This document shows, piece by piece, positions 11,779 to 21,935 of a stretch of DNA of 64,000 nt. Where the stretch lies: positions 32,001 through 96,000 of IMG/VR virus record IMGVR_UViG_3300045988_149468. One strand, 5' to 3'. A program made the position numbers and the translations under genes. This DNA is from a virus. Every line of letters starts with the position of its first letter. The first letter of the stretch is position 1. The notes under the pieces are model-generated. The model was not told the DNA's origin and searched no databases. It worked only from the letters and a program-made list of their open reading frames with translations.

Positions 11779-13672
11779 ATGGCAGATCATCAATTTAATA
11801 TTAAATTAGGTATTAAAGTTGAAAAAGGTGATTCTGAAAAACAGTTAGAGAATCTCAAAAAATCATTAGAAGAGAAGAAAATTACTTTAAAATTAGATGT
11901 AACTAAGCTTAATGAACAATTAAAAACATTTAAAGATTCGTTAAGTGATGTTAATAAAAAATTAAATGATGCTTTTAAGTTAAATAATGGTGCATTAGAT
12001 AATTTAAAGAATTTAAAAACCGTATTAGAGGAAATCAACAAATTAAGTGGTAAAACTAAAATACAAATTAATAATAGTAAAGACGTAAACACAATTACTA
12101 AAAATTTAGAAACACAGAAACAAAAGTATGCTGAATTAATAAGGTTGAAACAAAGCCTTGAAAAACAAAGAGCTAAAACAACTAATGCTGAATCGTATAA
12201 TGCATTAACAAGAGAAATTGATTTAGTTTCACAAAAAGCAGAAGAATGTAAAACTAAACTTAGTGAACTAACTAAGATTAAGTTAAATGCCGACATGACT
12301 AAAAGTATGGCATCGCAATTTCAAACAATTCAAAAAGAAGCTCAATCCTTAAAAACTTCATTAGAAAATACTTTAAAAAATTCTAATTTAACAATGACTC
12401 AGCAACATGATTTAGAAAATCTCTTAAAAACTATCGAAAAAATCAAAGGTAAAAAAGTAGATTTAAAAACTGATGGAGCAAAAACTAAATTACAAGATAT
12501 AAAAACCAATTTAGAAAGTATTAAAGAAAAATATTCATCAATTAAAATAGATATAAAAACTAACGACAATATTAGAAGTGCGATAAAAACAACTAATGAT
12601 TTTATTAACAAAATTAATTCTGCTCAAAAATCTAAAACTGGTGTAAATTCATTTATTGATGAAGGAAAATTAAATAATTTAAAAACTAAAGTTAAAGATT
12701 TAAGAACTCAATTGTCCGATGTACATTTAAAACCTAATGTTGAATCAGAGATTGAAAACATTATAAAAAAATTAGATAGATGTAAGGTTGAGTTTAAAGA
12801 ATTACAAAATTCAGCTAAATTAAGCATGAAAATAGATGGTGATGTAAATTCACAAACTAAACAGATTGATACTATGTTAAATAAGCTAAAAGAAATGAAA
12901 CAATGGAAAATTGGTTCAAATGCTTATATAGATGAATCTAAAATCAATGAAGCGATATCTAAATTAGAACAGTATAAAAATGAATTGAAAAATTTAGACG
13001 TTAATGATGAAAAAGTTGCATCTGAATTTGAGACTATAAAAAGTAAAATCAATGAAACAACACAAGAAATAAAAGAATTTCAAAATCAAGCTAAGCAAGG
13101 TATGAAAATTGATAGCAATAATGCTAGTATAGATTCATTAAAAAACAAAATCACTCAGTTAAAAAATGAAGAAAAATTAACTGCTGAACAAGCTGAACAA
13201 CTTAAACAAAAATTAAATCAAATATCACAAATGGATGTTGGAAAACAAGCTAATGCTATAAAACATTTTAGAAACGAATTAAAACAAGCTACAGATGAAA
13301 CTTCCAGATTGCAAACTGGTGTTAAAAGAACAAGCACATTCTTTAGTAATCTATATTCAACAATGTCTACATTCTCTCTAGGTAATATTATAAGTATGCA
13401 AATAACCAAAGCTATTTATGGTATAAGTGATACTATTAGAGAATTAGATAAAGCATTTGTTGGGTTAACTAAAGTTGCACCAGATTCATTTCATGGTACT
13501 GCTGAAGAATTAGAAAATGTAAGACAAAAAGCAGTAGAGGTTGGACAAGATGTTGCTCGTAGTGCTACGGATATAATTAATTCAACTGCATCAGCTTTAC
13601 AGTTAGGCGTAAGTAATATTGATAGAGCTATGGAATATGCTAAAAATGTCAATTTATACGCAAATGTCGCAG
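11779..13672 (+). CDS. tail tape measure protein, exon 1
   Basis: Strong SD; about 500 aa of coiled-coil followed by the conserved TMP core (...VGQDVARSATDIINSTASALQLGVSNIDRAMEYAKNVNLYANVA). The uninterrupted frame would stop at 13698, inside intron sequence. Confidence 0.75.
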
Positions 13673-14043
13673 AAACAACATTCTGCCTATGTTTATAAAG
13701 AGCATAGCAAACTCATTGAATTGCTGGAAAGCCCTAAAGCTCAAATGCCACAACATAATTGGAAACGATAAGTGTGATGGAACGAAAGTAGAAAAAAGTT
13801 TTGAGATAGTATAAGGTTAAACCCTAAGTACTAAAATAATGGGTAATCAGCCTCCAAGTCTCTATAAAGTGAGAAAGGATAAACGACTATTCCGTGACGG
13901 GAAGTACACATATAAGCTATTGATATGTGGAAGTGGTGAGGTTCTTTTTATTGAAAAAGAATGTGATATAGTCTACTCTTATATGAAAGTATAAGAAGTT
14001 CATAAGAGAACTGTCTAGCGTAGCGAGCTAGATGAATACAAGG
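13673..14043 (+). ncRNA. group I intron TMP-I1 (ORF-less, 371 nt; boundaries inferred)
   Basis: Core elements occur in order: P GAATTGCTGGAAA 13718-30, Q AATCAGCC 13845-52, R AAACGACTATTCC 13881-93, S GATATAGTCT 13965-74. The 3' tail is GTTCATAAGAGAAC 13998-14011 plus hairpin TCTAGC/GCTAGA. It is richer in G+C than the flanks. Confidence 0.75.
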
Positions 14044-14190
14044 ATATTTCAGAAGAGGATTCAGATAAATATTTAAAATCAATAATGTCAGCGTATGGTG
14101 GCGTTGATGAATCATTGGATGCTATGAGTACCAAAGTTAAAGGTGCTGGTGATAATTACAGTAGATTAACTGATTATATGGATCAGGCAG
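14044..14190 (+). CDS. tail tape measure protein, exon 2
   Basis: Open stretch reading (D)ISEEDSDKYLKSIMSAYGGVDESLDAMSTKVKGAGDNYSRLTDYMDQA; no start codon or SD of its own. Confidence 0.6.
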
Positions 14191-14563
14191 ATGTTTGCCT
14201 AGTTGTATAGTAATATGCAACCGAAAACAACTCTAATTGCAGGTAATGGGTAAAGCCTTACACTACAATATGCCAGAAATGAGTATATGATAGTGCGAAA
14301 GCGGAAACAACGTAAGGATTCTCATATGGTTAAATCCTAAGTGGGAAATGATTAAATTCATACAATCCCTGTTCATGCAACCAAGCTCCCCTGTATATAA
14401 CGAGGAGAAGGCTCAACGACTAATTGTACATTACAAGCCAATGGTAATGGAAAAGGGTTGCTCCTATTTATATAGGATGAAGAAATAGTCTAATCTTATG
14501 TGAAAGCATAAGCAGTTTGTAAGAGAACGGCATAAATCTTGCGAATTTATGTGAATATGAAAG
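14191..14563 (+). ncRNA. group I intron TMP-I2 (ORF-less, 373 nt; boundaries inferred)
   Basis: P TAATTGCAGGTAA 14234-46, Q-like GTTCATGCAACC 14371-82, R CTCAACGACTAAT 14412-24, S AAATAGTCT 14483-91, tail GTTTGTAAGAGAAC 14515-28 plus hairpin CATAAAT/ATTTATG. It is closest to I4. Confidence 0.7.
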
Positions 14564-14577
14564 AAACTATGCAGGTG
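14564..14577 (+). CDS. tail tape measure protein, micro-exon 3 (14 nt; alternatively 13 nt, 14564-14576)
   Basis: This is the only segment between I2 and I3 whose length keeps exons 2 and 4 in frame: (E)TMQV in the 14-nt solution, (A)NYAG in the 13-nt solution. Confidence 0.4.
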
Positions 14578-14922
14578 AAAGTTTAATCGCCTAGTAATAC
14601 AAGTGATTGTATTATTTTACTTTTTGAATTGCTGGAAACTCCTTAGAGTCTTAAATACTACAACATAATCTGAAAAGATAAGTGTGAAAGTTTAAAAAAT
14701 TTAAGAATTGGAAAATCAGCAGGTAAGATTCTAAGTTGATTATAAAATCAATATGAATAAACTTCAACGACTATTCCTGGCAAGGAAGTACATTCAAGCG
14801 AATGGAAGTGGAAAGCTCTTATAATAATTATAAGATAAAGATATAGTCTAGTATCCTATTGAAAAATAGGGAAGTTCATAAGAGAACTGATTAGGAAGTA
14901 GCGAACCTAATTGAATATAACG
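14578..14922 (+). ncRNA. group I intron TMP-I3 (ORF-less, 345 nt; boundaries inferred)
   Basis: P GAATTGCTGGAAA 14626-38, Q AATCAGCAGG 14714-23, R TTCAACGACTATTCC 14763-77, S GATATAGTCT 14840-49, tail GTTCATAAGAGAAC 14874-87 plus hairpin ATTAGG/CCTAAT. It is closest to I1. Confidence 0.7.
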
Positions 14923-15411
14923 AATAATTTTGCTGTTACATCAGCCGACATAGGTGAAGCATTAATGAGAAGTGCTTCAGCTTTTAAATCTAATGGTATG
15001 GATATAAATGAAGGTATAGGATTAATTGTAGGTGCTCAAGAAACGGTTCAAAATGCGGGTAAAGTAGGAAATAGTTTTAAAACAATGATAAATCGTCTTA
15101 ATGGGGTTACTTACTCTATGAAAGAAGGAGATGTTATTGCTAACAAAACTGCACAAGCATTTGAAAAATTAGCAGGTATCAAAATAGTAGATTGGGATAC
15201 TAACAAAGTAAAAGATGCTTATACTATCTTTAGTCAATTAGCAGATAAATGGGATGATATGAACGATGTTCAAAAAAATGGTATAGCAGACGCATTAGGT
15301 GGTGCTCACCATTTGAACACATTACAAGCTTTAATGAACAACTGGGACACTGTCGTACAATATCAACAAGAATATAACGATGGATTCATGGTTGGATCAG
15401 CTGAAAAAGAG
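14923..15411 (+). CDS. tail tape measure protein, exon 4
   Basis: NNFAVTSADIGEALMRSASAFKSNGMDINEGIGLIVGAQETVQNAGKVGNSFKTMINRL... is the typical TMP core. The track ORF 14911-15447 extends into intron sequence on both sides. Confidence 0.65.
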
Positions 15412-15647
15412 AAACAACATTCTCCGTATGTACAGAAATGTGCATAGGACACAACTTGAATTGCAGGTACAACCTAAGAGCCTTACACCACAATATTGGA
15501 GAAATCACAATATGAAGGTACGAAAGTAGAAACAACGTAAGGATAGATATAAGGTTAAATCCTAAGTATCTAAATGTAATTAAAGTAATTATTACATTAC
15601 AATGGTAGTTCATGCAGAGAAATTCCTAAATTTAATTTATAAAATCA

Positions 15648-15676
15648 TTGACAATATTTACCATTGGTGTTATTAT
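15648..15676 (+). promoter_or_regulatory. sigma-70-type promoter inside intron I4
   Basis: TTGACA (15648-53), 17 bp, TATTAT (15671-76), 11 bp, AATTAATAAGGAGG (15688-), then ATG 15710. Confidence 0.5.
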
Positions 15677-15709
15677 TTAAATATAATAATTAATAAGGAG
15701 GTGATTATT

Positions 15710-16861
15710 ATGGCAAAAAAATATAATGAAAAAGATATTATTGAAATTTTAGAAAAAAATAATGTGATATTATTATCAAATTATAAAAATAGCACAACAG
15801 AATTAAAAATGATTTGTAGCTGTGGAAAGCATTTTAGTAAATCGTTTAAAATAATGAAACGAAGTGGAAATTTTAAATGTAATGATTGTATAAAAAAAGA
15901 ACAAGTAAAAAAACAAACTATGCCTTATGAAATTGCAAAACAGAGAGTTGAAAACTTAGGATATAAATTGTTAACAACCAAAGAAGAATATATTAAAGCT
16001 AGTGAAAAAAACAAATTACAATGTCCAAATGGGCATATATATGAACAAATATTATTAGATTTATTTAAAGGACACAGATGTAAAAAATGTGCATCTAAAA
16101 TAAACGGAGATAAATCTAAATTTAAATACGAAGATGTTAAAAAGGTTATAACTGATTTAGGATTTGAATTATTATCAGCAGAATATGTAAATAATGATAC
16201 TCCTTTAAAAGTTAAATGTAAAAAATGTAATCATATATTTTCCCCAACTTTACATAATTTAAAAAACGGAACTGGCTGTCCAAATTGTTATTCAAAAATT
16301 AGGGGTAAATCTACAATCATACCATACGAGGATAGAGTAAATTATGTTGAAAATTTTAATTATAAAATCTTAACACCAAAAGAAGAATATATTAATGGTG
16401 AAAATAAGGTGAAATTAAAATGTTCAAAAGGACATATTTATGAAGCTAGATTGCATGATTTTTACATTGGAAATAGATGTCCGCATTGTAAGGAATCTAA
16501 AGGTGAAAGAAAAATTGAAAGATTTTTAAAAGAAAATGACATTAGATTTGAAAAACAATACATTATAAAAAGATGTAAATTTAAAAGATATTTACCTTTT
16601 GATTTTTATTTACCTGATTATAACCTTCTTATAGAATATGATGGGAAGCAACATTTTGAAATAAGTGATTATTTTGGGGGTTATGAAAGTTTCATAGATA
16701 CCAAGATAAGAGATACAATTAAAAACATTTATTGTCAAAATAATAACATAGATTTATTGAGAATCTCTTATTGGGATTATAAAAATATTGAGAATATATT
16801 GGCTGATAAATTAAAATTAAACAAGGAAAACTTTCAACGACTAGAGTTGAGATACTCGTAG
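15710..16861 (+). CDS. intron-encoded homing endonuclease: tandem zinc-ribbon modules plus C-terminal Vsr/PD-(D/E)XK-like nuclease domain
   Basis: ATG 15710 follows AAGGAGG. There are four repeats of CxxGH...GxxCPxC-type ribbons (CSCGKH..CNDC, CPNGH..CKKC, CKKCNH..CPNC, CSKGH..CPHC). The C-terminus FDFYLPDYNLLIEYDGKQHFE...RD matches Vsr/DUF559-like and EDxHD-type nucleases. The last codons overlap intron element R. Confidence 0.75.
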   Translation: MAKKYNEKDIIEILEKNNVILLSNYKNSTTELKMICSCGKHFSKSFKIMKRSGNFKCNDCIKKEQVKKQTMPYEIAKQRVENLGYKLLTTKEEYIKASEKNKLQCPNGHIYEQILLDLFKGHRCKKCASKINGDKSKFKYEDVKKVITDLGFELLSAEYVNNDTPLKVKCKKCNHIFSPTLHNLKNGTGCPNCYSKIRGKSTIIPYEDRVNYVENFNYKILTPKEEYINGENKVKLKCSKGHIYEARLHDFYIGNRCPHCKESKGERKIERFLKENDIRFEKQYIIKRCKFKRYLPFDFYLPDYNLLIEYDGKQHFEISDYFGGYESFIDTKIRDTIKNIYCQNNNIDLLRISYWDYKNIENILADKLKLNKENFQRLELRYS

Positions 16862-17000
16862 GATATAAGCGATTGATATCCGAAGTGGGTTGCCCCTAAC
16901 GTAAAGACGAGGGTGAAGAAATAGTCTGCTCATCTATAGAAATATAGAGAAGTTCATAAGAGAACTGCATAGGTATAGCGAATCTATGTGAACAAAAAGG

Positions 17001-20000
17001 AATGCTAGATTTATAGATAGCATAGAAGGTAAAATAACAAAATTAAAAGAACAATTTAATAGTTTGGTTACAACTACAATAAGTACGGATAGTGTTAAAA
17101 CATTTTTAGATGTATTAACAAGTGTATTAGAAACAGTTAATGGTATAGTAAAAGCATTTGATAATATAGGTATGTCTGCTCCTTTGATGATTGGTGTTTT
17201 TGCTAGTTTAGGTAAAACTATAAAAGCTTTAGGTACAGGTTCAGCATTAACTGTGACTGGGGGAAGTATATTTTCAAATTTATTAGGTAGAGCTGGTGTT
17301 CAAATACCACAAACTCTACAACAAAGTACTACTGCAACTGAAGGATTTAGAGTAGCTTTAACTAATGTAAGTGGAGCATCTATGTTAGCTTCAGCAAAAA
17401 CTGCTGTTTTAACTGCGGGTGTAACATTATTAAATACAGTTATGACAGGATTAGCTATTGGTGCTATTGCTTTAGTTTGTAAAGCTTTATATGATTATGT
17501 CAATGCTAATCAAATTGCACATGATAGAATAGAAGATAATATTGATACTACTAAAAGTAATATTAATAGTTATACCAAACAAAAGAATAGCTTAAAAGGT
17601 ATTGCAGAAGAATATGATAATTTAGCGGACAAAACTAATAAAAGTACAAAAGAATCTGAAAGATATCATGAATTACAACAACAAATAGCTGATACTGCAC
17701 CAGATTTAGTTTTAGGACAAGATTCTAATGGAAATCCAATTTTAGCTTTAAATGGATCATTAGAAGATTATATAGATAATTTAGATAGTGCAATAAAAAG
17801 AGAACAAGAGTTTTTAAAAATTCAACAAAATGCATTAGCAAATACTTCAATAGGGAATTTAGTTAAATATACTAAAGATAGAAGTATAGTTGAGTCATCT
17901 CTTGGGAATATGACAAACTTTTCAGATGCATGGGACGATAGTGGTTCATGGTGGAATAAAAAAGGATTAAAAAATGCTAAAGATGGCGCTGATGCCTATG
18001 TTCGTATAGTGCAAGAAAGAAATGATAAAGTAAATAAACTTAATAAAACTTTAACAGAACATTTTACTGAAGTTTCTCAAATAGAAGCAGAACAACAACA
18101 AAAAGTATTTAATGAATTAGGAGATGAATATCTTTATAAAAATTATAATAAGTTATCTAAAGACGGAATTAAGAATACTAAAAATATTATGGATACACTT
18201 ATTGGTAATTTTAACTGGGGTAGTGAAGTCGTAGATACAGTAGCGAAACAAAAGGATTTCATAGAAAGTTTTGATGAAATAGCTTCTAAAGTTGGTAAAA
18301 GCAAAGAAGAAATGCAAGAATGGAATAAAACTTTAAGTGAAGCTAATTATGCTTTCCAAGAAACAGGTGATTATGAACAATTCCAAAAAGACATAAGTGG
18401 TATAACTGAAGAATTAGAAAAAATGACTGGAATTGACGCTGAAAAATGGGCAATTGGATTTACACCAGCTTTACAAGGTTCATTAGATGCTGATTCTATA
18501 GCATTGAGTAAATTTTTAAAGAATTATAATAAAACACTTACAGAACTTAAATCTGGTGATAAAGTAGCAATAAGAATACAAGCCGAATATGAAGATACCA
18601 ATGATTTCATACAAAAGATAACTAATATGGAAGATAGACAGCAACAGATTGATTATATGGTTAAAATTAATACTGGTGAAGTTGAATATGGCAATCTTCC
18701 TTACCAAATTCAAGAAATGATTAAAGGTACTCTTGATGGTGGTAAAACAATGCAAGATTGGGAATCTGATGTTGTTATGAGAATTGCTACTGAAATTCAA
18801 TCTAATGGTGAATTAGATGATAAAACATTTGATTTAATTGCTAGAATGTTAAATGGTGAATTAACCGATACGGAAATTAAAGCAGGGATAACATTACCTA
18901 GTGGTGATGTATTAAATGCACAACTTGTTGGTGAAATAAATGAGGTTAATAAAAATAAAGATAAAAACATTAAAGTAGGAATTGAAGCTGATTCAGAGAA
19001 ATTAGATGAAGATTTATCTACCATTTTAGGTGATAAAGAAGAAGCTAAACAGTTAAAAGTTGATTTAGTTACTAATTTTAATGAAGATAAATTTGAAACA
19101 TTCAATGAATTAATTAAAGATATGGATTCTGATAAACAAATTCAAATAGCTACTGCTTTTGTTAATAATGGTGATGCAGATCCAGATGAAATAGAACAAT
19201 TTATATCATCTTTACCTGATGAAATCCAAAAGATAGTTAGAATTAAGTATGAAGAAAGTGGCAAAAATGATGTTGAAAATAGTGTGTTTAATGAATCTAA
19301 AGTACAGACAATTATACTTGATGCTGATGATGAAAAGGCACAAGCTAAGATTAAGAAATTAGGTAAAACGCTAGATGATATGGACGGTGTTGATAGAAAT
19401 ATTAAAGTTGGTATTATTGAAAATGCTGGTACAGGTAATGTAAAAGATATGATGAAAGCATTAGATTTAGTAAAAGATTTACCAGAAGAAAAAAGATTGG
19501 ATGTTATAAGTAATTTACAAGATATAATGGTAAACTTTTCTGAAGCTGACAAAAAACAACTTAAACCTAAAATAATGGAAATACTTGGTGATAATTCTGA
19601 TGCTAATTCTAAAATAGATAACACAAACGCAAAAGATACCCCAGACAAGAATTTGGATATTAATGCTAACGATAACGCTAGTAATAAAATTCATAAGGTA
19701 CAACAAGAAAGTATAGCCGACAAATTCTTCAACATAGTTGTTGGCGTAAAAGAAACCGTTGCAGGTGCATGGAAAGCTCTAACTAGTGGTGTAGGTGGAT
19801 TATATTCTAAAGGTGATAATAGTACTATAAAACACAAGTCAATTAGTGAATTTTCTAATATAGGAGATAACCCAATAGATGTTGATAGTGCTACACCAAC
19901 AGCTCAAAGTATGGATTTTAACTCTATGTCGGATAGTCCTTCAGTAGTAGATTCTGATTCAACAATAGATAATACAAGCTCAGCTATTAGTAAAGTAAAA

Positions 20001-21935
20001 GCATTTACTACTCAAGCATTAAGAGGATTTACAGATATAGGTAAAACAACTACAATAGGTACAAAAATAGACATAAAGAAAAACACATTAGATTCTATAG
20101 AGTATGCTGTAAACTTAATGCAAGAATTAGAATATCGTATTGATAATGTCAATGATAAATTATCTTTATTGGATGTTAAAATGGAAAATGCAGTAGGTAC
20201 TAAGAAAATTGAATACTTACAAAAACAAAATGCGTTATATGAAGAACAAGCTAAATTACAAAAAGAACTTTATGATAATTTAACTCAAGAAAAGCAAATA
20301 GTTAAAGATAAATTAAGAACATATGGTTTTACAATAGATGCACAAGGGAATCTTAGAAATTATGAAGAAACACTTCTTAAAATGGAAAAAAGAGCTAAAG
20401 AGCTAGAAGACCAAGCCGAAAAAACTAGTAAAAAAGCATCAGATTATGATACTAAAAGTAATAGTAAGTCTAGTAAGAAAACTAAAAAGTCATTACAAAA
20501 GAAAGCCGATAGTTCTAAAGACGCTTCAGATAAATATAAAGAAAAACTTGAAAAGGTAAAAGATTTAACGGAACAATATCTAAAAATGCAAAGAGATGAA
20601 ATTCCAGATGCAGAAAAAGAATGGTTAGAAATGCAAAATGCTATTAAAAAAAATAATGATGAAATAGAAAAGTTAGAATTAGAAGATAAATTATATAAAT
20701 TCAAAAATAGTGTTACTGGATTGACTAATCAATATGACATATGGGGAGATAAAATTGACTTAATAGATACTAAGCTAAACAATTCATTACAAACAGATAA
20801 GGTTTCTTTATATCAACAAAAATTATCAGCTTTAAATAAACAACTTGAAATACAAGAAAAAACATTAGAATCTTTAAAAAATCAATTACCAGTTTATCAA
20901 GAAGCATTATCGAAATATGGTGTTCAGTTTGGAGAAAATGGTAATATCATCAATATGTCTAATGTATTAAATGAATATCAAAATAGTGAAGATTTAGAAA
21001 AGATTAATGATTTAATGAAAGAATATAATGACTTAATCAGAGATACAATTCCAAATGCACAACAAGAATATGAAGATTTGAATAATGCAATTCAAGATGT
21101 TTATAATAGTCAATTAGATGTTGTAAAAGATATTGAAGATAAGATTACTGATGTTATTAAGGATCAAATTGATAAACGTAAAGATTTAATTCAAAAACAA
21201 TATGATAAAGAAATTGAATTACTTAATAAACGAAAAGATGAATATAATAACAATAAAAATACAAATGATTATTATAAAAACTTAGAAGAAGCACAATCTG
21301 AAATTGATAAAATACAAGCTAAAATTAATAGACTAAGTTTTGACAATTCATTATCTAGTAAAAGTAAGATAAGCGATTTAATGGATGATTTAAAAGATGC
21401 ACAAGATAAATATAATGATTTAGTTAACGATAGACAAGACGATTTAATTAATAATATGTATGACGATGAAATTGATAAACTTCAAAAAGAACAAGAAGAT
21501 AAAATACAAGAGCTTGAAGATAAATGGTCAGATAGTAAAATAGCTGAATTAGTTGCTAATGCGTTAGGTACACAACAATTTATAGATATTGACGGAAATG
21601 TTCATAATTTACAAGATACACTGCTTAGTTTTGCTGAAGAAAGTGGAGATGCATTAGGAATATTAGGTGATAAGATTAAAAGTGAATTAGTATTAAATCT
21701 TCAAGATGCTTTAGAATATGCTAAAGATTATAGTAATATATTTGACAACTTAGGATTAAAACATCTAGGTAATGTAAACTATAGTGATAAACTTAATAAC
21801 AAAACATTACGAGTTGATGATATAAGTATTAATGTATATGGTACTGACAACATGGATGAACAAAAAATAGCTAAAGAAGTAGCTAAACAACTTGATGGTA
21901 AATTTAGTGAAATAACAAATGGAGGACTTTTATAG
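17001..21935 (+). CDS. tail tape measure protein, exon 5
   Basis: NARFIDSIEGKITKLKEQFNSLVTT..., then a hydrophobic segment and a long coiled-coil. No SD or ATG; the track assigns TTG 17064. The frame is open from 16992. Confidence 0.75.
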   Translation, partial: NARFIDSIEGKITKLKEQFNSLVTTTISTDSVKTFLDVLTSVLETVNGIVKAFDNIGMSAPLMIGVFASLGKTIKALGTGSALTVTGGSIFSNLLGRAGVQIPQTLQQSTTATEGFRVALTNVSGASMLASAKTAVLTAGVTLLNTVMTGLAIGAIALVCKALYDYVNANQIAHDRIEDNIDTTKSNINSYTKQKNSLKGIAEEYDNLADKTNKSTKESERYHELQQQIADTAPDLVLGQDSNGNPILALNGSLEDYIDNLDSAIKREQEFLKIQQNALANTSIGNLVKYTKDRSIVESSLGNMTNFSDAWDDSGSWWNKKGLKNAKDGADAYVRIVQERNDKVNKLNKTLTEHFTEVSQIEAEQQQKVFNELGDEYLYKNYNKLSKDGIKNTKNIMDTLIGNFNWGSEVVDTVAKQKDFIESFDEIASKVGKSKEEMQEWNKTLSEANYAFQETGDYEQFQKDISGITEELEKMTGIDAEKWAIGFTPALQGSLDADSIALSKFLKNYNKTLTELKSGDKVAIRIQAEYEDTNDFIQKITNMEDRQQQIDYMVKINTGEVEYGNLPYQIQEMIKGTLDGGKTMQDWESDVVMRIATEIQSNGELDDKTFDLIARMLNGELTDTEIKAGITLPSGDVLNAQLVGEINEVNKNKDKNIKVGIEADSEKLDEDLSTILGDKEEAKQLKVDLVTNFNEDKFETFNELIKDMDSDKQIQIATAFVNNGDADPDEIEQFISSLPDEIQKIVRIKYEESGKNDVENSVFNESKVQTIILDADDEKAQAKIKKLGKTLDDMDGVDRNIKVGIIENAGTGNVKDMMKALDLVKDLPEEKRLDVISNLQDIMVNFSEADKKQLKPKIMEILGDNSDANSKIDNTNAKDTPDKNLDINANDNASNKIHKVQQESIADKFFNIVVGVKETVAGAWKALTSGVGGLYSKGDNSTIKHKSISEFSNIGDNPIDVDSATPTAQSMDFNSMSDSPSVVDSDSTIDNTSSAISKVKAFTTQALRGFTDIGKTTTIGTKIDIKKNTLDSIEYAVNLMQELEYRIDNVNDKLSLLDVKMENAVGTKKIEYLQKQNALYEEQAKLQKELYDNLTQEKQIVKDKLRTYGFTIDAQGNLRNYEETLLKMEKRAKELEDQAEKTSKKASDYDTKSNSKSSKKTKKSLQKKADSSKDASDKYKEKLEKVKDLTEQYLKMQRDEIPDAEKEWLEMQNAIKKNNDEIEKLELEDKLYKFKNSVTGLTNQYDIWGDKIDLIDTKLNNSLQTDKVSLYQQKLSALNKQLEIQEKTLESLKNQLPVYQEALSKYGVQFGENGNIINMSNVLNEYQNSEDLEKINDLMKEYNDLIRDTIPNAQQEYEDLNNAIQDVYNSQLDVVKDIEDKITDVIKDQIDKRKDLIQKQYDKEIELLNKRKDEYNNNKNTNDYYKNLEEAQSEIDKIQAKINRLSFDNSLSSKSKISDLMDDLKDAQDKYNDLVNDRQDDLINNMYDDEIDKLQKEQEDKIQELEDKWSDSKIAELVANALGTQQFIDIDGNVHNLQDTLLSFAEESGDALGILGDKIKSELVLNLQDALEYAKDYSNIFDNLGLKHLGNVNYSDKLNNKTLRVDDISINVYGTDNMDEQKIAKEVAKQLDGKFSEITNGGLL

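What the first reader, a model, noticed from the sequence alone, without database searches (positions are those of the whole stretch)
11779..21935. Tape-measure gene split into five exons by four related group I introns
The TMP frame stops at 13698. It reappears only as short open stretches and then as a 4.9-kb ORF that has no start codon or SD. Each of the four gaps is richer in G+C than its flanks. Each carries the classical group I core elements in order: P (GAATTGC[TA]GG, at 13718, 14234, 14626, 15458), Q (AATCAGC.. or GTTCATGCA), R (..CAACGACTA.., at 13881, 14412, 14763, 16833) and S (A[TA]ATAGTCT, at 13965, 14483, 14840, 16919). They also share a 3' tail, GTT[CT][AG]TAAGAGAAC-hairpin-TG. 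The terminal hairpin stems covary between copies (TCTAGC/GCTAGA, CATAAAT/ATTTATG, ATTAGG/CCTAAT, CATAG/CTATG), which argues for a conserved RNA structure. Removing 13673-14043, 14191-14563, 14578-14922 and 15412-17000 leaves one uninterrupted 7,479-nt ORF of 2,492 aa. It reads ...NLYANVA-D-ISEEDSDKYLKSIMSAYGG...LTDYMDQA-E-TMQV-NNFAVTSADIGEAL...GSAEKE-NARFIDSIEGKITKLKEQF... To my eye this is a continuous tape-measure core. I do not recall a tail-length ruler gene carrying four introns. The introns fall into two sequence subfamilies, I1/I3 and I2/I4, but I1 and I4 share an identical 5' end (AAACAACATTCT). That pattern suggests intron duplication and recombination within a single gene.
Basis: partly seen in the sequence, partly recalled or inferred. 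Interest (0 to 1): 0.9.

Follow-up and report, generated by a model that had tools for sequence, protein, structure and literature searches.

The report
Four self-splicing introns in tape-measure gene
The tail tape-measure gene of this large SPbeta/phiCD211-like clostridial phage really is cut into five exons, one only 13 bases long, by four related group I introns; introns in tape-measure genes are already known, but three of these four do not follow the usual uridine at the 5' splice site.

Summary
The gene at 11779-21935 is interrupted four times. Rfam RF00028 hits I3 (73 bits), I2 (50.5) and I1 (43.8, below the 50-bit threshold). It misses I4, which carries a 1.2-kb insert in P6 holding an endonuclease gene.

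Relatives without introns read ...DxANYAGNNFA..., not ...AETMQVNNFA.... The supported introns are 13673-14043, 14189-14563, 14577-14922 and 15412-17000. Exon 3 is 13 nt, and the product is 2,491 aa.

Each intron has a guide sequence that pairs with its own exon ends. This pairing, and changes that preserve it in relatives, support the junctions.

The base before the splice site is G in I1 and I4, C in I2, and U only in I3.

This is not a new kind of feature. Group I introns at several sites in tape-measure genes were described in Bacillus cereus prophages in 2008. The GenBank record of phiCD211 already marks one. I found no report of four in one such gene, of the 13-nt exon, or of a G before the splice site. 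Splicing itself is inferred, not shown.

The parts
11779..13672 (+). TMP exon 1 (1,894 nt). It ends ...AAT GTC GCA G, the first base of the Asp codon.
   Evidence: ORF. Relatives without this intron read NVNLYANVA|D(M/I)SE. Phase 1.
13673..14043 (+). Intron I1 (371 nt, no ORF). P1 is GCAG|AA paired with UUCUGC (13669-13686). P2 is the hairpin CUAUGUUU...AGAGCAUAG. The last base is G14043. The base before the 5' splice site is G, or A if the junction is shifted by one.
   Evidence: RF00028 43.8 bits, E 4.5e-9 over the region, below the 50-bit gathering score. The P1 hairpin was also picked up by the scan. L002 shows a compensatory change, GCGG with CCGC.
14044..14188 (+). TMP exon 2 (145 nt). 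It ends ...GAT CAG GC.
   Evidence: tblastn blocks. Homologue junction DxA|NYAG.
14189..14563 (+). Intron I2 (375 nt, no ORF). The guide sequence GUUUGCCU (14193-14200) is 8/8 complementary to the ligated exons AGGC|AAAC. The base before the 5' splice site is C14188, paired C-G. The last base is G14563.
   Evidence: RF00028 50.5 bits, at the gathering score. Only 7 of 5000 shuffles reach the guide-sequence match. Relatives P0002, P0003 and L136 have this intron at the same Ala codon.
14564..14576 (+). TMP exon 3, a 13-nt micro-exon AAACTATGCAGGT. It supplies (A)NYAG.
   Evidence: Only this reading reproduces the near-invariant ANYAGNNFA motif of homologues. L002 has I3 without I2, and L124 and L136 have I2, so they are two separate introns.
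14577..14922 (+). Intron I3 (346 nt, no ORF). It has a canonical P1 with the U14576-G wobble pair. The last base is G14922.
   Evidence: RF00028 73.4 bits, E 1e-16. The same intron in L002 scores 68 bits.
14923..15411 (+). TMP exon 4 (489 nt). It holds the C-terminal two thirds of the PhageMin_Tail domain and ends ...GAA AAA GAG.
   Evidence: PF10145, E 1.9e-17, profile positions 87-201. Relatives without this intron read GSAEKE|NA.
15412..17000 (+). Intron I4 (1,589 nt). The guide sequence CAUUCUC (15418-15424) is 7/7 complementary to GAG|AAUG. P2 is the hairpin UAUGUAC...GUGCAUA. A 1.2-kb insert sits in the P6 loop (about 15627-16824). The last base is G17000. The base before the 5' splice site is G15411.
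   Evidence: Core motifs. With the insert removed it aligns with I1-I3 and shares P3, P7.1, P7.2, P8 and P9-P9.2, with compensatory pairs. Only 18 of 5000 shuffles reach the guide-sequence match. RF00028 does not detect it.
15710..16861 (+). Intron-encoded endonuclease gene (383 aa). It has about four zinc-ribbon modules and a C-terminal Vsr-like nuclease domain. Its last 12 codons overlap P6 (3' side), P7 and the start of P7.1.
   Evidence: Pfam DUF4379, E 3.9e-13. PHROG 559, 9084 and 7140, labelled homing or intron-encoded nuclease. The AlphaFold model (pLDDT 84) matches E. coli Vsr (prob 0.99, TM 0.50 on the target) and AbaSI. 1,244 homologues at E<=1e-10.
15648..15704 (+). Promoter-like site TTGACA-17-TATTAT with an upstream TG (15648-15676), followed by an AAGGAGGTG ribosome-binding site (15696-15704) ahead of the endonuclease ATG.
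   Evidence: Best-scoring site of the region, 11 of 12. Sequence. It is a consensus match only; function is not shown.
17001..21935 (+). TMP exon 5 (4,935 nt including the stop codon). It starts AAT GCT AGA = NARFIDSIEGK.
   Evidence: Open frame. Homologues P0034 and P0035 run across the junction.

Best explanation
The 2,491-aa tail tape-measure protein of a roughly 110-150-kb phage is encoded by five exons separated by four group I introns. The phage is SPbeta/phiCD211-like and its relatives come from Peptostreptococcaceae-type hosts. The introns have hairpins where subgroup IA2 has P7.1 and P7.2.

Each intron is transcribed within the late tail operon and folds into the conserved core. Each pairs its own guide sequence with the end of the upstream exon (P1) and the start of the downstream exon (P10). 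It then removes itself by the two guanosine-initiated transesterifications and ends on a terminal G.

Splicing joins ...NVA|DISE..., ...DQA|NYAG|NNFA... and ...AEKE|NARF.... This restores the PhageMin_Tail domain. In-frame stops 5-11 codons into each intron halt ribosomes that read through.

I4 carries a Vsr-like endonuclease gene with zinc ribbons in P6, with its own promoter-like site and ribosome-binding site. This gene most likely drives homing. I1-I3 have no ORF. They are probably copies that lost their endonuclease gene or are mobilised in trans.

Shown: the intron cores, the junctions, the guide-sequence complementarity, and presence or absence of each intron among relatives. Inferred: self-splicing, endonuclease activity, and homing.
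For: **RNA core**
- RF00028 hits on I3, I2 and I1.
- All core motifs occur four times, in order.
- RNAalifold on the four introns recovers P3, P7.1, P7.2, P8, P9, P9.1 and P9.2. Of 62 predicted pairs, 32 show compensatory change.
- The 3' hairpin covaries across 128 copies.

**Junctions**
- Relatives lacking I1 (P0001, P0002, P0005), I2 and I3 (P0001, P0005, P0007) or I4 (P0034-P0036) read straight across each junction.
- PF10145 covers profile positions 1-201 only in the spliced protein.
- Guide sequences span the ligated junctions: 8/8 for I2 and 7/7 for I4.
- P1 changes are compensated: GCAG/CUGC in the window I1 against GCGG/CCGC in L002 I1, and GAG/CUC against AAG/CUU.
- The Glu codon before I4-type introns is GAG in all 13 such exon contexts found (9 at this junction, 4 at a nearby Gln-Tyr-Gln (QYQ) site). 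The window's tape-measure gene uses GAA 166 times and GAG 14 times.

**Context**
- The gene order is tail-chaperone-like genes, TMP, distal tail protein (Dit), then a large minor tail protein.
- The same interrupted gene recurs in contigs up to 148 kb from many metagenomes.
Against: - No transcript or protein data exist. I found no spliced junction sequence in the collections searched.
- Three of the four introns lack the near-universal U-G pair at the 5' splice site.
- I1 is below the Rfam gathering score and I4 is not detected at all.
- Relatives of I4 that lack the endonuclease gene are also missed or score weakly with RF00028.
- The endonuclease has no sequence relative among solved structures.
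Confidence: 0.85

Rival explanations
1. I1 and I4 splice at a canonical U-G pair 20 nt further downstream (after U13692 and U15431) and end one base earlier (G14042, G16999). The hairpin I call P2 would then be P1. The shared 20-nt element AAACAAYAUUCUNCNUAUGU would be a portable 5' exon that stays in the mRNA. It would add 7 residues at each site (ETTFCLC; KQHSPYV).
For: This model also gives one open frame, of 2,505 aa. Rfam aligned the I1 hairpin as P1 with a U-G pair. The element plus one base is 21 nt, a multiple of three, and it is open in all three frames.
Against: - Homologues without introns lack the 7 residues at both sites.
- The corresponding hairpin in L002 I1 is all Watson-Crick, so no wobble pair is available there.
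- In I2 and I3 a hairpin in the same position follows a separate P1.
- The element contains a 7-8-nt guide sequence complementary to the precise junction.
- The element is far better conserved at the nucleotide level than the neighbouring codons.
Confidence: 0.1
2. The gene is a decaying pseudogene in a defective prophage. The intervening sequences no longer splice, or only some do, and no full-length tape-measure protein is made.
For: Three non-canonical 5' splice sites. I1-I3 have no endonuclease gene. No expression data exist.
Against: - All five exons stay open, including 4.9 kb downstream.
- The 13-nt exon still encodes the near-invariant NYAG.
- Guide sequences co-vary with exon changes.
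- The same architecture occurs in many independent viral contigs of 110-150 kb.
Confidence: 0.03
3. The interruptions are another kind of element (inteins, IStrons, or group II introns), or the gene is expressed by recoding or translational bypass.
For: None specific. IStrons are known in Clostridioides (PMC4227781, listed).
Against: - Each insert has stop codons within 5-11 codons of its start, which excludes inteins.
- There is no transposase gene. The only ORF is an endonuclease gene in P6.
- The only Rfam family hit is Intron_gpI.
Confidence: 0.01

Closest known systems
Group I introns TMP-IVS1, IVS2 and IVS3 in tape-measure genes of Bacillus cereus-group prophages (Tourasse and Kolsto 2008, PMC2504315)
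   Same: - Group I introns of subgroups IA1 and IA2 sit inside a phage tape-measure gene at several sites.
- Related introns at different sites have adapted P1 and guide sequences.
- Some copies lack a complete endonuclease gene.
- Presence or absence varies among related prophages.
   Different: - That work found three sites and, as described, at most two introns per gene. Here there are four in one gene, and roughly ten sites across relatives.
- It states that virtually all group I introns follow a U. Here three of four do not.
- No micro-exon was reported there.
- Whether the sites are homologous was not tested.
Clostridium phage phiCD211 / phiCDIF1296T (131 kb): tape-measure gene annotated as two CDS with an 'Intron_gpI' misc_RNA (GenBank LN681537.2)
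   Same: It is among the closest named phages. Unannotated Clostridioides phage records score higher, at 51-52% identity. The tape-measure domain is 45% identical over 96% of the query, the genome is large, and the host clade matches. The gene is already recorded as interrupted by a group I intron.
   Different: Its intron sites differ: after QNAK and after KTIG. Only one intron is annotated. By eye there are two, separated by a micro-exon of about 30 nt. The second of these follows a canonical U.
Staphylococcus phage Twort orf142, one gene with three self-splicing group I introns (Landthaler and Shub 1999; cited from my own knowledge, paper not read here)
   Same: Several related group I introns lie in one phage gene, with short internal exons and a risk of exon skipping.
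   Different: Three introns rather than four, in a different gene. Splicing was shown experimentally there and not here.
Phage T4 td, nrdB and nrdD introns, with open reading frames looped out of the ribozyme core (my own knowledge; one search lists PMC1865063 on the T4 introns)
   Same: The endonuclease ORF sits in a peripheral loop with its own expression signals, and its 3' end overlaps core sequence. Stop codons lie early in the intron.
   Different: The T4 endonucleases belong to the GIY-YIG and HNH families. Here the nuclease is Vsr-like with zinc ribbons. The T4 introns follow U.
Two fungal mitochondrial group I introns with a C-G pair at the 5' splice site (Hur and Waring 1995; title seen in the reference list of PMC6468297; paper not held)
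   Same: This is a precedent for I2. A C-G pair replaces U-G at the splice site, with the guide-strand G kept.
   Different: The hosts are organellar and the subgroup differs. I know of no precedent for G before the splice site paired with C, as inferred for I1 and I4.

Membership tests
Group I intron (Rfam RF00028) | The covariance model scores at or above the gathering threshold of 50 bits. | tested here: inconclusive
   I3 scores 73.4 and I2 scores 50.5, so both pass. I1 scores 43.8 (E 4.5e-9 locally, 7e-8 over the window), which is below threshold. I4 gives no hit because of its 1.2-kb P6 insert.
Group I intron (Rfam RF00028) | The conserved core is present: P3-P8, the P4-P6 strands, and the P7 guanosine-binding helix (the P, Q, R, S elements). 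| tested here: met
   P, Q, R and S are present in order in all four introns. P3, P8 and P9 are recovered by RNAalifold with compensatory changes in all four, including I4. The P and Q strands co-vary: GCUGG with UCAGC, and GCAGG with CAUGC.
Group I intron (Rfam RF00028) | A U-G wobble pair lies at the 5' splice site in P1. | tested here: not met
   It is met only by I3 (U14576-G). I2 has C14188-G. I1 and I4 have G paired with C. These follow from the homologue-defined junctions, the terminal-G rule, and the guide-sequence complementarity. The L135 3' end ...AAUG|AAUGCA leaves no alternative for the I4 type.
Group I intron (Rfam RF00028) | The last intron base is G. | tested here: met
   G14043, G14563, G14922 and G17000.
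Group I intron (Rfam RF00028) | An internal guide sequence pairs with the 5' exon (P1) and the 3' exon (P10). | tested here: met
   I2 matches 8/8 and I4 matches 7/7 across the ligated junction (7 and 18 of 5000 shuffles reach these values). I1 has a 6-bp P1. I3 has a P1 in the Rfam alignment. P10 is weak for I1 and I3.
Group I intron (Rfam RF00028) | Self-splicing that depends on guanosine and Mg2+. | not testable with these tools
   This needs in vitro transcription or RT-PCR.
Subgroup IA2 | Extra hairpins P7.1 and P7.2 lie between the 5' strand of P7 and the 3' strand of P3. | tested here: met
   Two hairpins (alignment columns 272-285 and 289-311) lie between AACGACUA and the 3' strand of P3 in all four introns. 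I did not check other features of the subgroup.
Phage tail tape-measure protein (Pfam PF10145 PhageMin_Tail) | A domain match above the cut-off, and a position between the tail-chaperone genes and the distal tail protein. | tested here: met
   72-84 bits against a cut-off of 33.2. The distal tail protein (PHROG 33) and a minor tail protein (PHROG 6211) lie immediately downstream. In relatives a YomN-family gene lies upstream.
Vsr-like (PD-(D/E)XK) homing endonucleases | A Vsr-type nuclease fold with catalytic acidic and His residues, and site-specific cleavage of the allele that lacks the intron. | tested here: inconclusive
   The fold matches E. coli Vsr (prob 0.99, TM 0.50 on the target, rmsd 3.8 over 103 columns) and AbaSI (prob 0.96), but whole-model E-values are weak. 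D298, E309, H315 and K338 are invariant in 20 homologues. There is no sequence hit to solved structures. Cleavage is untested.

The most novel reading that the evidence does not exclude
A lineage of phage IA2-type group I introns has given up the U-G wobble pair at the 5' splice site. It splices after G (paired with C; I1 and I4, and their relatives at three tape-measure sites) or after C (paired with G; I2). This would free these introns from the need to insert after a U. It could explain how they colonised about ten sites in one protein domain. Intron-intron recombination would then shuffle P1-P2 modules and occasionally delete the micro-exon between two introns.
Probability: 0.5. Interest if true: 0.65.

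Novelty: new member of a known kind. Interest (0 to 1): 0.45.

Why it matters
**Annotation.** Gene callers report this tape-measure protein as fragments. Examples are the 639-aa clusters P0011-P0021 and a 456-aa Clostridioides difficile 'tape measure protein', P0024. Tail-length and host-range inferences for phiCD211-like and SPbeta-like phages are therefore made on truncated models.

**Splicing constraints.** I found no report of four group I introns in one phage gene, though my literature search was limited. The 13-nt exon lies between two ribozymes. Its first 4 nt serve P10 of I2 and its last 6 nt serve P1 of I3. This makes a compact natural test of how tandem group I introns avoid exon skipping.

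**Splice-site rule.** If splicing after G or C is confirmed, it would be a natural exception to one of the most conserved rules of group I introns. A single RT-PCR would test it.

Tried and rejected
- **Canonical U-G model for all four introns.** It gives an open 2,505-aa frame. I kept it for I2 and I3, where homologues confirm it. I rejected it for I1 and I4, because homologues without introns lack the extra 7 residues.
- **Rfam on I4-type introns that lack the endonuclease gene.** L136 and L139 gave no hit at E<=0.01. A narrower search of L134 gave only 21-27 bits. I4 therefore rests on alignment and covariation, not on the Rfam model.
- **Search for the 20-nt I1/I4 element in other genes.** Scans of viral and metagenome contigs found it only at three tape-measure sites, apart from chance matches without an intron core.
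- **Search for the I2 guide sequence elsewhere.** The 15-mer scan returned almost only chance matches.
- **Search for ligated-junction sequences.** These would mark spliced cDNA or alleles without introns that have identical exons. Neither viral nor metagenome contigs had any.
- **Host identification.** A single-protein query of reference genomes found nothing. One alignment was too divergent to use. A trimmed alignment found a C. difficile 132-kb plasmid and Terrisporobacter mayombei.
- **Solved structures related to the endonuclease, by sequence.** None was found.
- **The local Pfam copy.** It lacks the SPbeta Yon/Yom families, so that assignment rests on precomputed hits in relatives' loci.

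Full report
**1. The observation**

The frame then reappears as short open stretches and as a long frame running to 21935. The core motifs each occur exactly four times in the 64-kb window. All copies are on the + strand, in the same order, inside the four gaps. A looser form of the S motif has two extra matches elsewhere.

Rfam RF00028 (Intron_gpI) hits 14567-14871 at 73.4 bits and 14174-14512 at 50.5 bits. Both reach the gathering score. A regional search adds 13683-13995 at 43.8 bits, E 4.5e-9. No other Rfam family and no tRNA is found in the window.

The G+C statement is only partly right. I1 and I2 are 0.35-0.36. I3 is 0.29 and I4 is 0.26, against 0.34 for exons 2 and 4.

**2. Where the junctions really are**

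Two sets of boundaries both give one open frame, so I used relatives to decide between them. Protein searches found relatives that lack individual introns.

- Junction 1: P0001, P0002 and P0005 read NVN(L/I/M)YANV(A/S)D... straight across.
- Junctions 2 and 3: P0001, P0005, P0007, P0008 and P0009 read ...D(M/N/L)ANY(A/I)GNN(F/Y)A... across both.
- Junction 4: P0034, P0035 and P0036 read GSA(E/T)KE(N/L).... P0034 reads GSAEKE|NAAYLDS.

Junctions 2 and 3 are not. The true reading is DQA|NYAG|NNFAV, which requires I2 = 14189-14563 and I3 = 14577-14922. Exon 3 is then the 13 nt AAACTATGCAGGT. The spliced gene is 7,476 nt and encodes 2,491 aa.

PF10145 matches exon 4 alone only from profile position 87. 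It matches the spliced protein at 72-84 bits, and a single match covers the full profile (positions 1-201) only in the spliced construct. The introns sit in the best-conserved motifs of the domain: N89 and D92, and N141-A148.

**3. Guide sequences confirm the junctions**

- I2 contains GUUUGCCU. This is an 8/8 Watson-Crick complement of the ligated exons AGGC|AAAC. Only 7 of 5000 shuffles reach this.
- I4 contains CAUUCUC. This is a 7/7 complement of GAG|AAUG. Only 18 of 5000 shuffles reach this.
- I1 forms GCAG|AA paired with UUCUGC (13669-13686). The hairpin scan also picked it up.
- I3 has a standard P1 with a U-G wobble pair.

Relatives supply compensatory changes.

- In L002, I1 follows GCG(G) and its guide sequence is CCGC. 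In the window the pair is GCAG with CUGC.
- The I4-type intron at a third site (QYQR|EY; L128, L132, L134) pairs AUAUUCUC with GAG|AAUA.
- The L002 copy after CAAGAA carries UUCUUC.
- All 13 distinct exon contexts preceding an I4-type intron end in G (9 at junction 4, 4 at the QYQ site). At junction 4 the codon is always GAG, although the window's gene uses GAA 166 times and GAG 14 times. One allele without the intron has GAA there.

The hairpin that Rfam aligned as P1 of I1 is therefore P2. It occupies the same position as P2 in I2 and I3. In L002 it contains no wobble pair.

**4. The unusual point**

The junctions are fixed by homologues, by the terminal-G rule, and by P1 and P10 pairing. 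Given those junctions, the base before the 5' splice site is:

| Intron | Base before splice site | Pairing |
|---|---|---|
| I3 | U | U-G wobble |
| I2 | C | C-G |
| I1 | G | G-C |
| I4 | G | G-C |

In L135 the intron ends ...AAUG|AAUGCA, which removes the one-base ambiguity for the I4 type. [quoted passage not shown] A C-G exception has been reported in two fungal introns (title only). I know of no precedent for G paired with C.

The rival model splices at a U-G pair 20 nt downstream and leaves 7 extra residues. It stays in frame. It is contradicted by the homologues without introns, by L002, and by the guide sequences. I give it about 0.1.

**5. The fold and I4**

I4 is invisible to Rfam because about 1.2 kb is inserted in the P6 loop. 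With the insert removed it aligns with the other three. RNAalifold then recovers the following:

- P3;
- two hairpins between the 5' strand of P7 and the 3' strand of P3, as expected for P7.1 and P7.2 of subgroup IA;
- P8, P9, and two 3' hairpins.

Of 62 predicted pairs, 32 show compensatory change.

The 3' tail GUUCAUAAGAGAAC-hairpin-UGAA is common in phage DNA. An exact 17-mer found more than 119 stretches in IMG/VR. Of 128 distinct tails, 125 keep a hairpin of at least 7 bp, with 73 different stems.

Pairwise identity supports an I2/I4 pairing (68%). It does not support a distinct I1/I3 pairing. The 5' module of I1 is closest to that of I4, at 74%. This fits module exchange between introns.

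**6. The endonuclease**

The ORF 15710-16861 encodes 383 aa. It has an AAGGAGGTG ribosome-binding site and the best promoter-like site of the region just upstream.

- Pfam sees DUF4379 zinc fingers.
- PHROGs sees homing or intron-encoded nuclease families.
- The family is large, with 1,244 proteins at E<=1e-10. A few are named 'very-short-patch-repair endonuclease' by their sources.
- An AlphaFold model (pLDDT 84) matches E. coli Vsr and the nuclease domain of AbaSI at the domain level.

Activity and target were not tested.

**7. Context and relatives**

Downstream lie a distal tail protein and a 1,335-aa minor tail protein. Loci of homologues carry SPbeta families YonB, YonD, YomW, YomV, YomU and YomN around the gene, on contigs of 110-150 kb.

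Named relatives are phiCD211 and phiCDIF1296T, at 45% identity in the domain. A C. difficile 132-kb plasmid and Terrisporobacter mayombei also carry the gene.

Relatives carry intervening sequences at about ten positions of the same domain:

- ANVA|D
- within the Ala of xANYAG
- AG|NN
- ESI|VQN
- QNAG|K
- KVG|
- SAKDG|
- AIAG|
- QYQ(Q/R)|E
- KE|NA

These come in different combinations. Several belong to a second sequence class that RF00028 does not recognise. I did not verify those as group I introns.

**8. Comparison with what is known**

Group I introns in tape-measure genes are published. Tourasse and Kolsto (2008) found three sites in B. cereus-group prophages. Related IA2 introns there had adapted their P1 to different sites. 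The GenBank record of phiCD211 annotates an Intron_gpI between two tape-measure CDS.

The finding is therefore a new member of a known kind. My literature searches found no report of four group I introns in one phage gene or of a 13-nt exon in a tape-measure gene. I did not search specifically for reports of G before the splice site. These searches cover only the held library.

**9. Verdict**

Interest is moderate. It would be higher if RT-PCR confirms splicing after G and C.

Noticed in passing
L002 3945-8285 (IMGVR_UViG_3300045988_132453, a close relative; exons 91-100% identical): The same gene has a different set of introns.
- I1 is 1.1 kb, carries a 228-aa ORF, and has a different P1 loop.
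- I2 is absent and I3 is present.
- An extra 311-nt insert follows QNAG.
- One 1.9-kb intron joins QYQQE directly to NARF, so 13 codons (YNDGFMVGSAEKE) are missing. This looks like recombination between two tandem introns that deleted the micro-exon between them.
   Followed up: partly
window 17763-17786 (EDYIDNLD in exon 5); relative protein P0033: In a 97%-identical relative on a 4.3-kb contig, the tape-measure frame continues after ...EDYIDNLD into about 380 aa of DNA-methylase-like sequence (PF01555). This could be a further insertion or an assembly chimera.
   Followed up: no
L144 6570-7175 (phiCD211, LN681537.2 28576-29181): GenBank annotates one Intron_gpI. By eye there are two intervening sequences, separated by a micro-exon of about 30 nt (...KVGTALKTIG). 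The first belongs to a class that RF00028 does not detect.
   Followed up: partly
L134 5797-6137; L135, L023, L105 and L031 gaps; L002 5690-6000: A second class of inserts of about 310-340 nt lies in relatives' tape-measure genes (GAATTGAG..AAAATCGGTCA...ATGCTAA...). It gets no RF00028 hit even in narrow searches. It may be a divergent group I subclass.
   Followed up: partly
L003-L121 (IMG/VR stretches): The 17-mer AGTTCATAAGAGAACTG from the intron 3' tail occurs in more than 119 viral-contig stretches. These include contigs of 200-313 kb, and some contigs hold several copies. This intron class is widespread in large phages.
   Followed up: partly
window 15710-16861: PHROGs labels the intron ORF's family (phrog_559) 'HNH endonuclease'. 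The predicted fold of the catalytic domain is Vsr-like, and I saw no HNH motif. The label may be wrong for a family of more than 1,200 proteins.
   Followed up: partly
L136 9357-10160: Two I4-type introns lie 425 nt apart, at QYQR|E and at GEKE|N. They are separated by a micro-exon of about 45 nt.
   Followed up: partly
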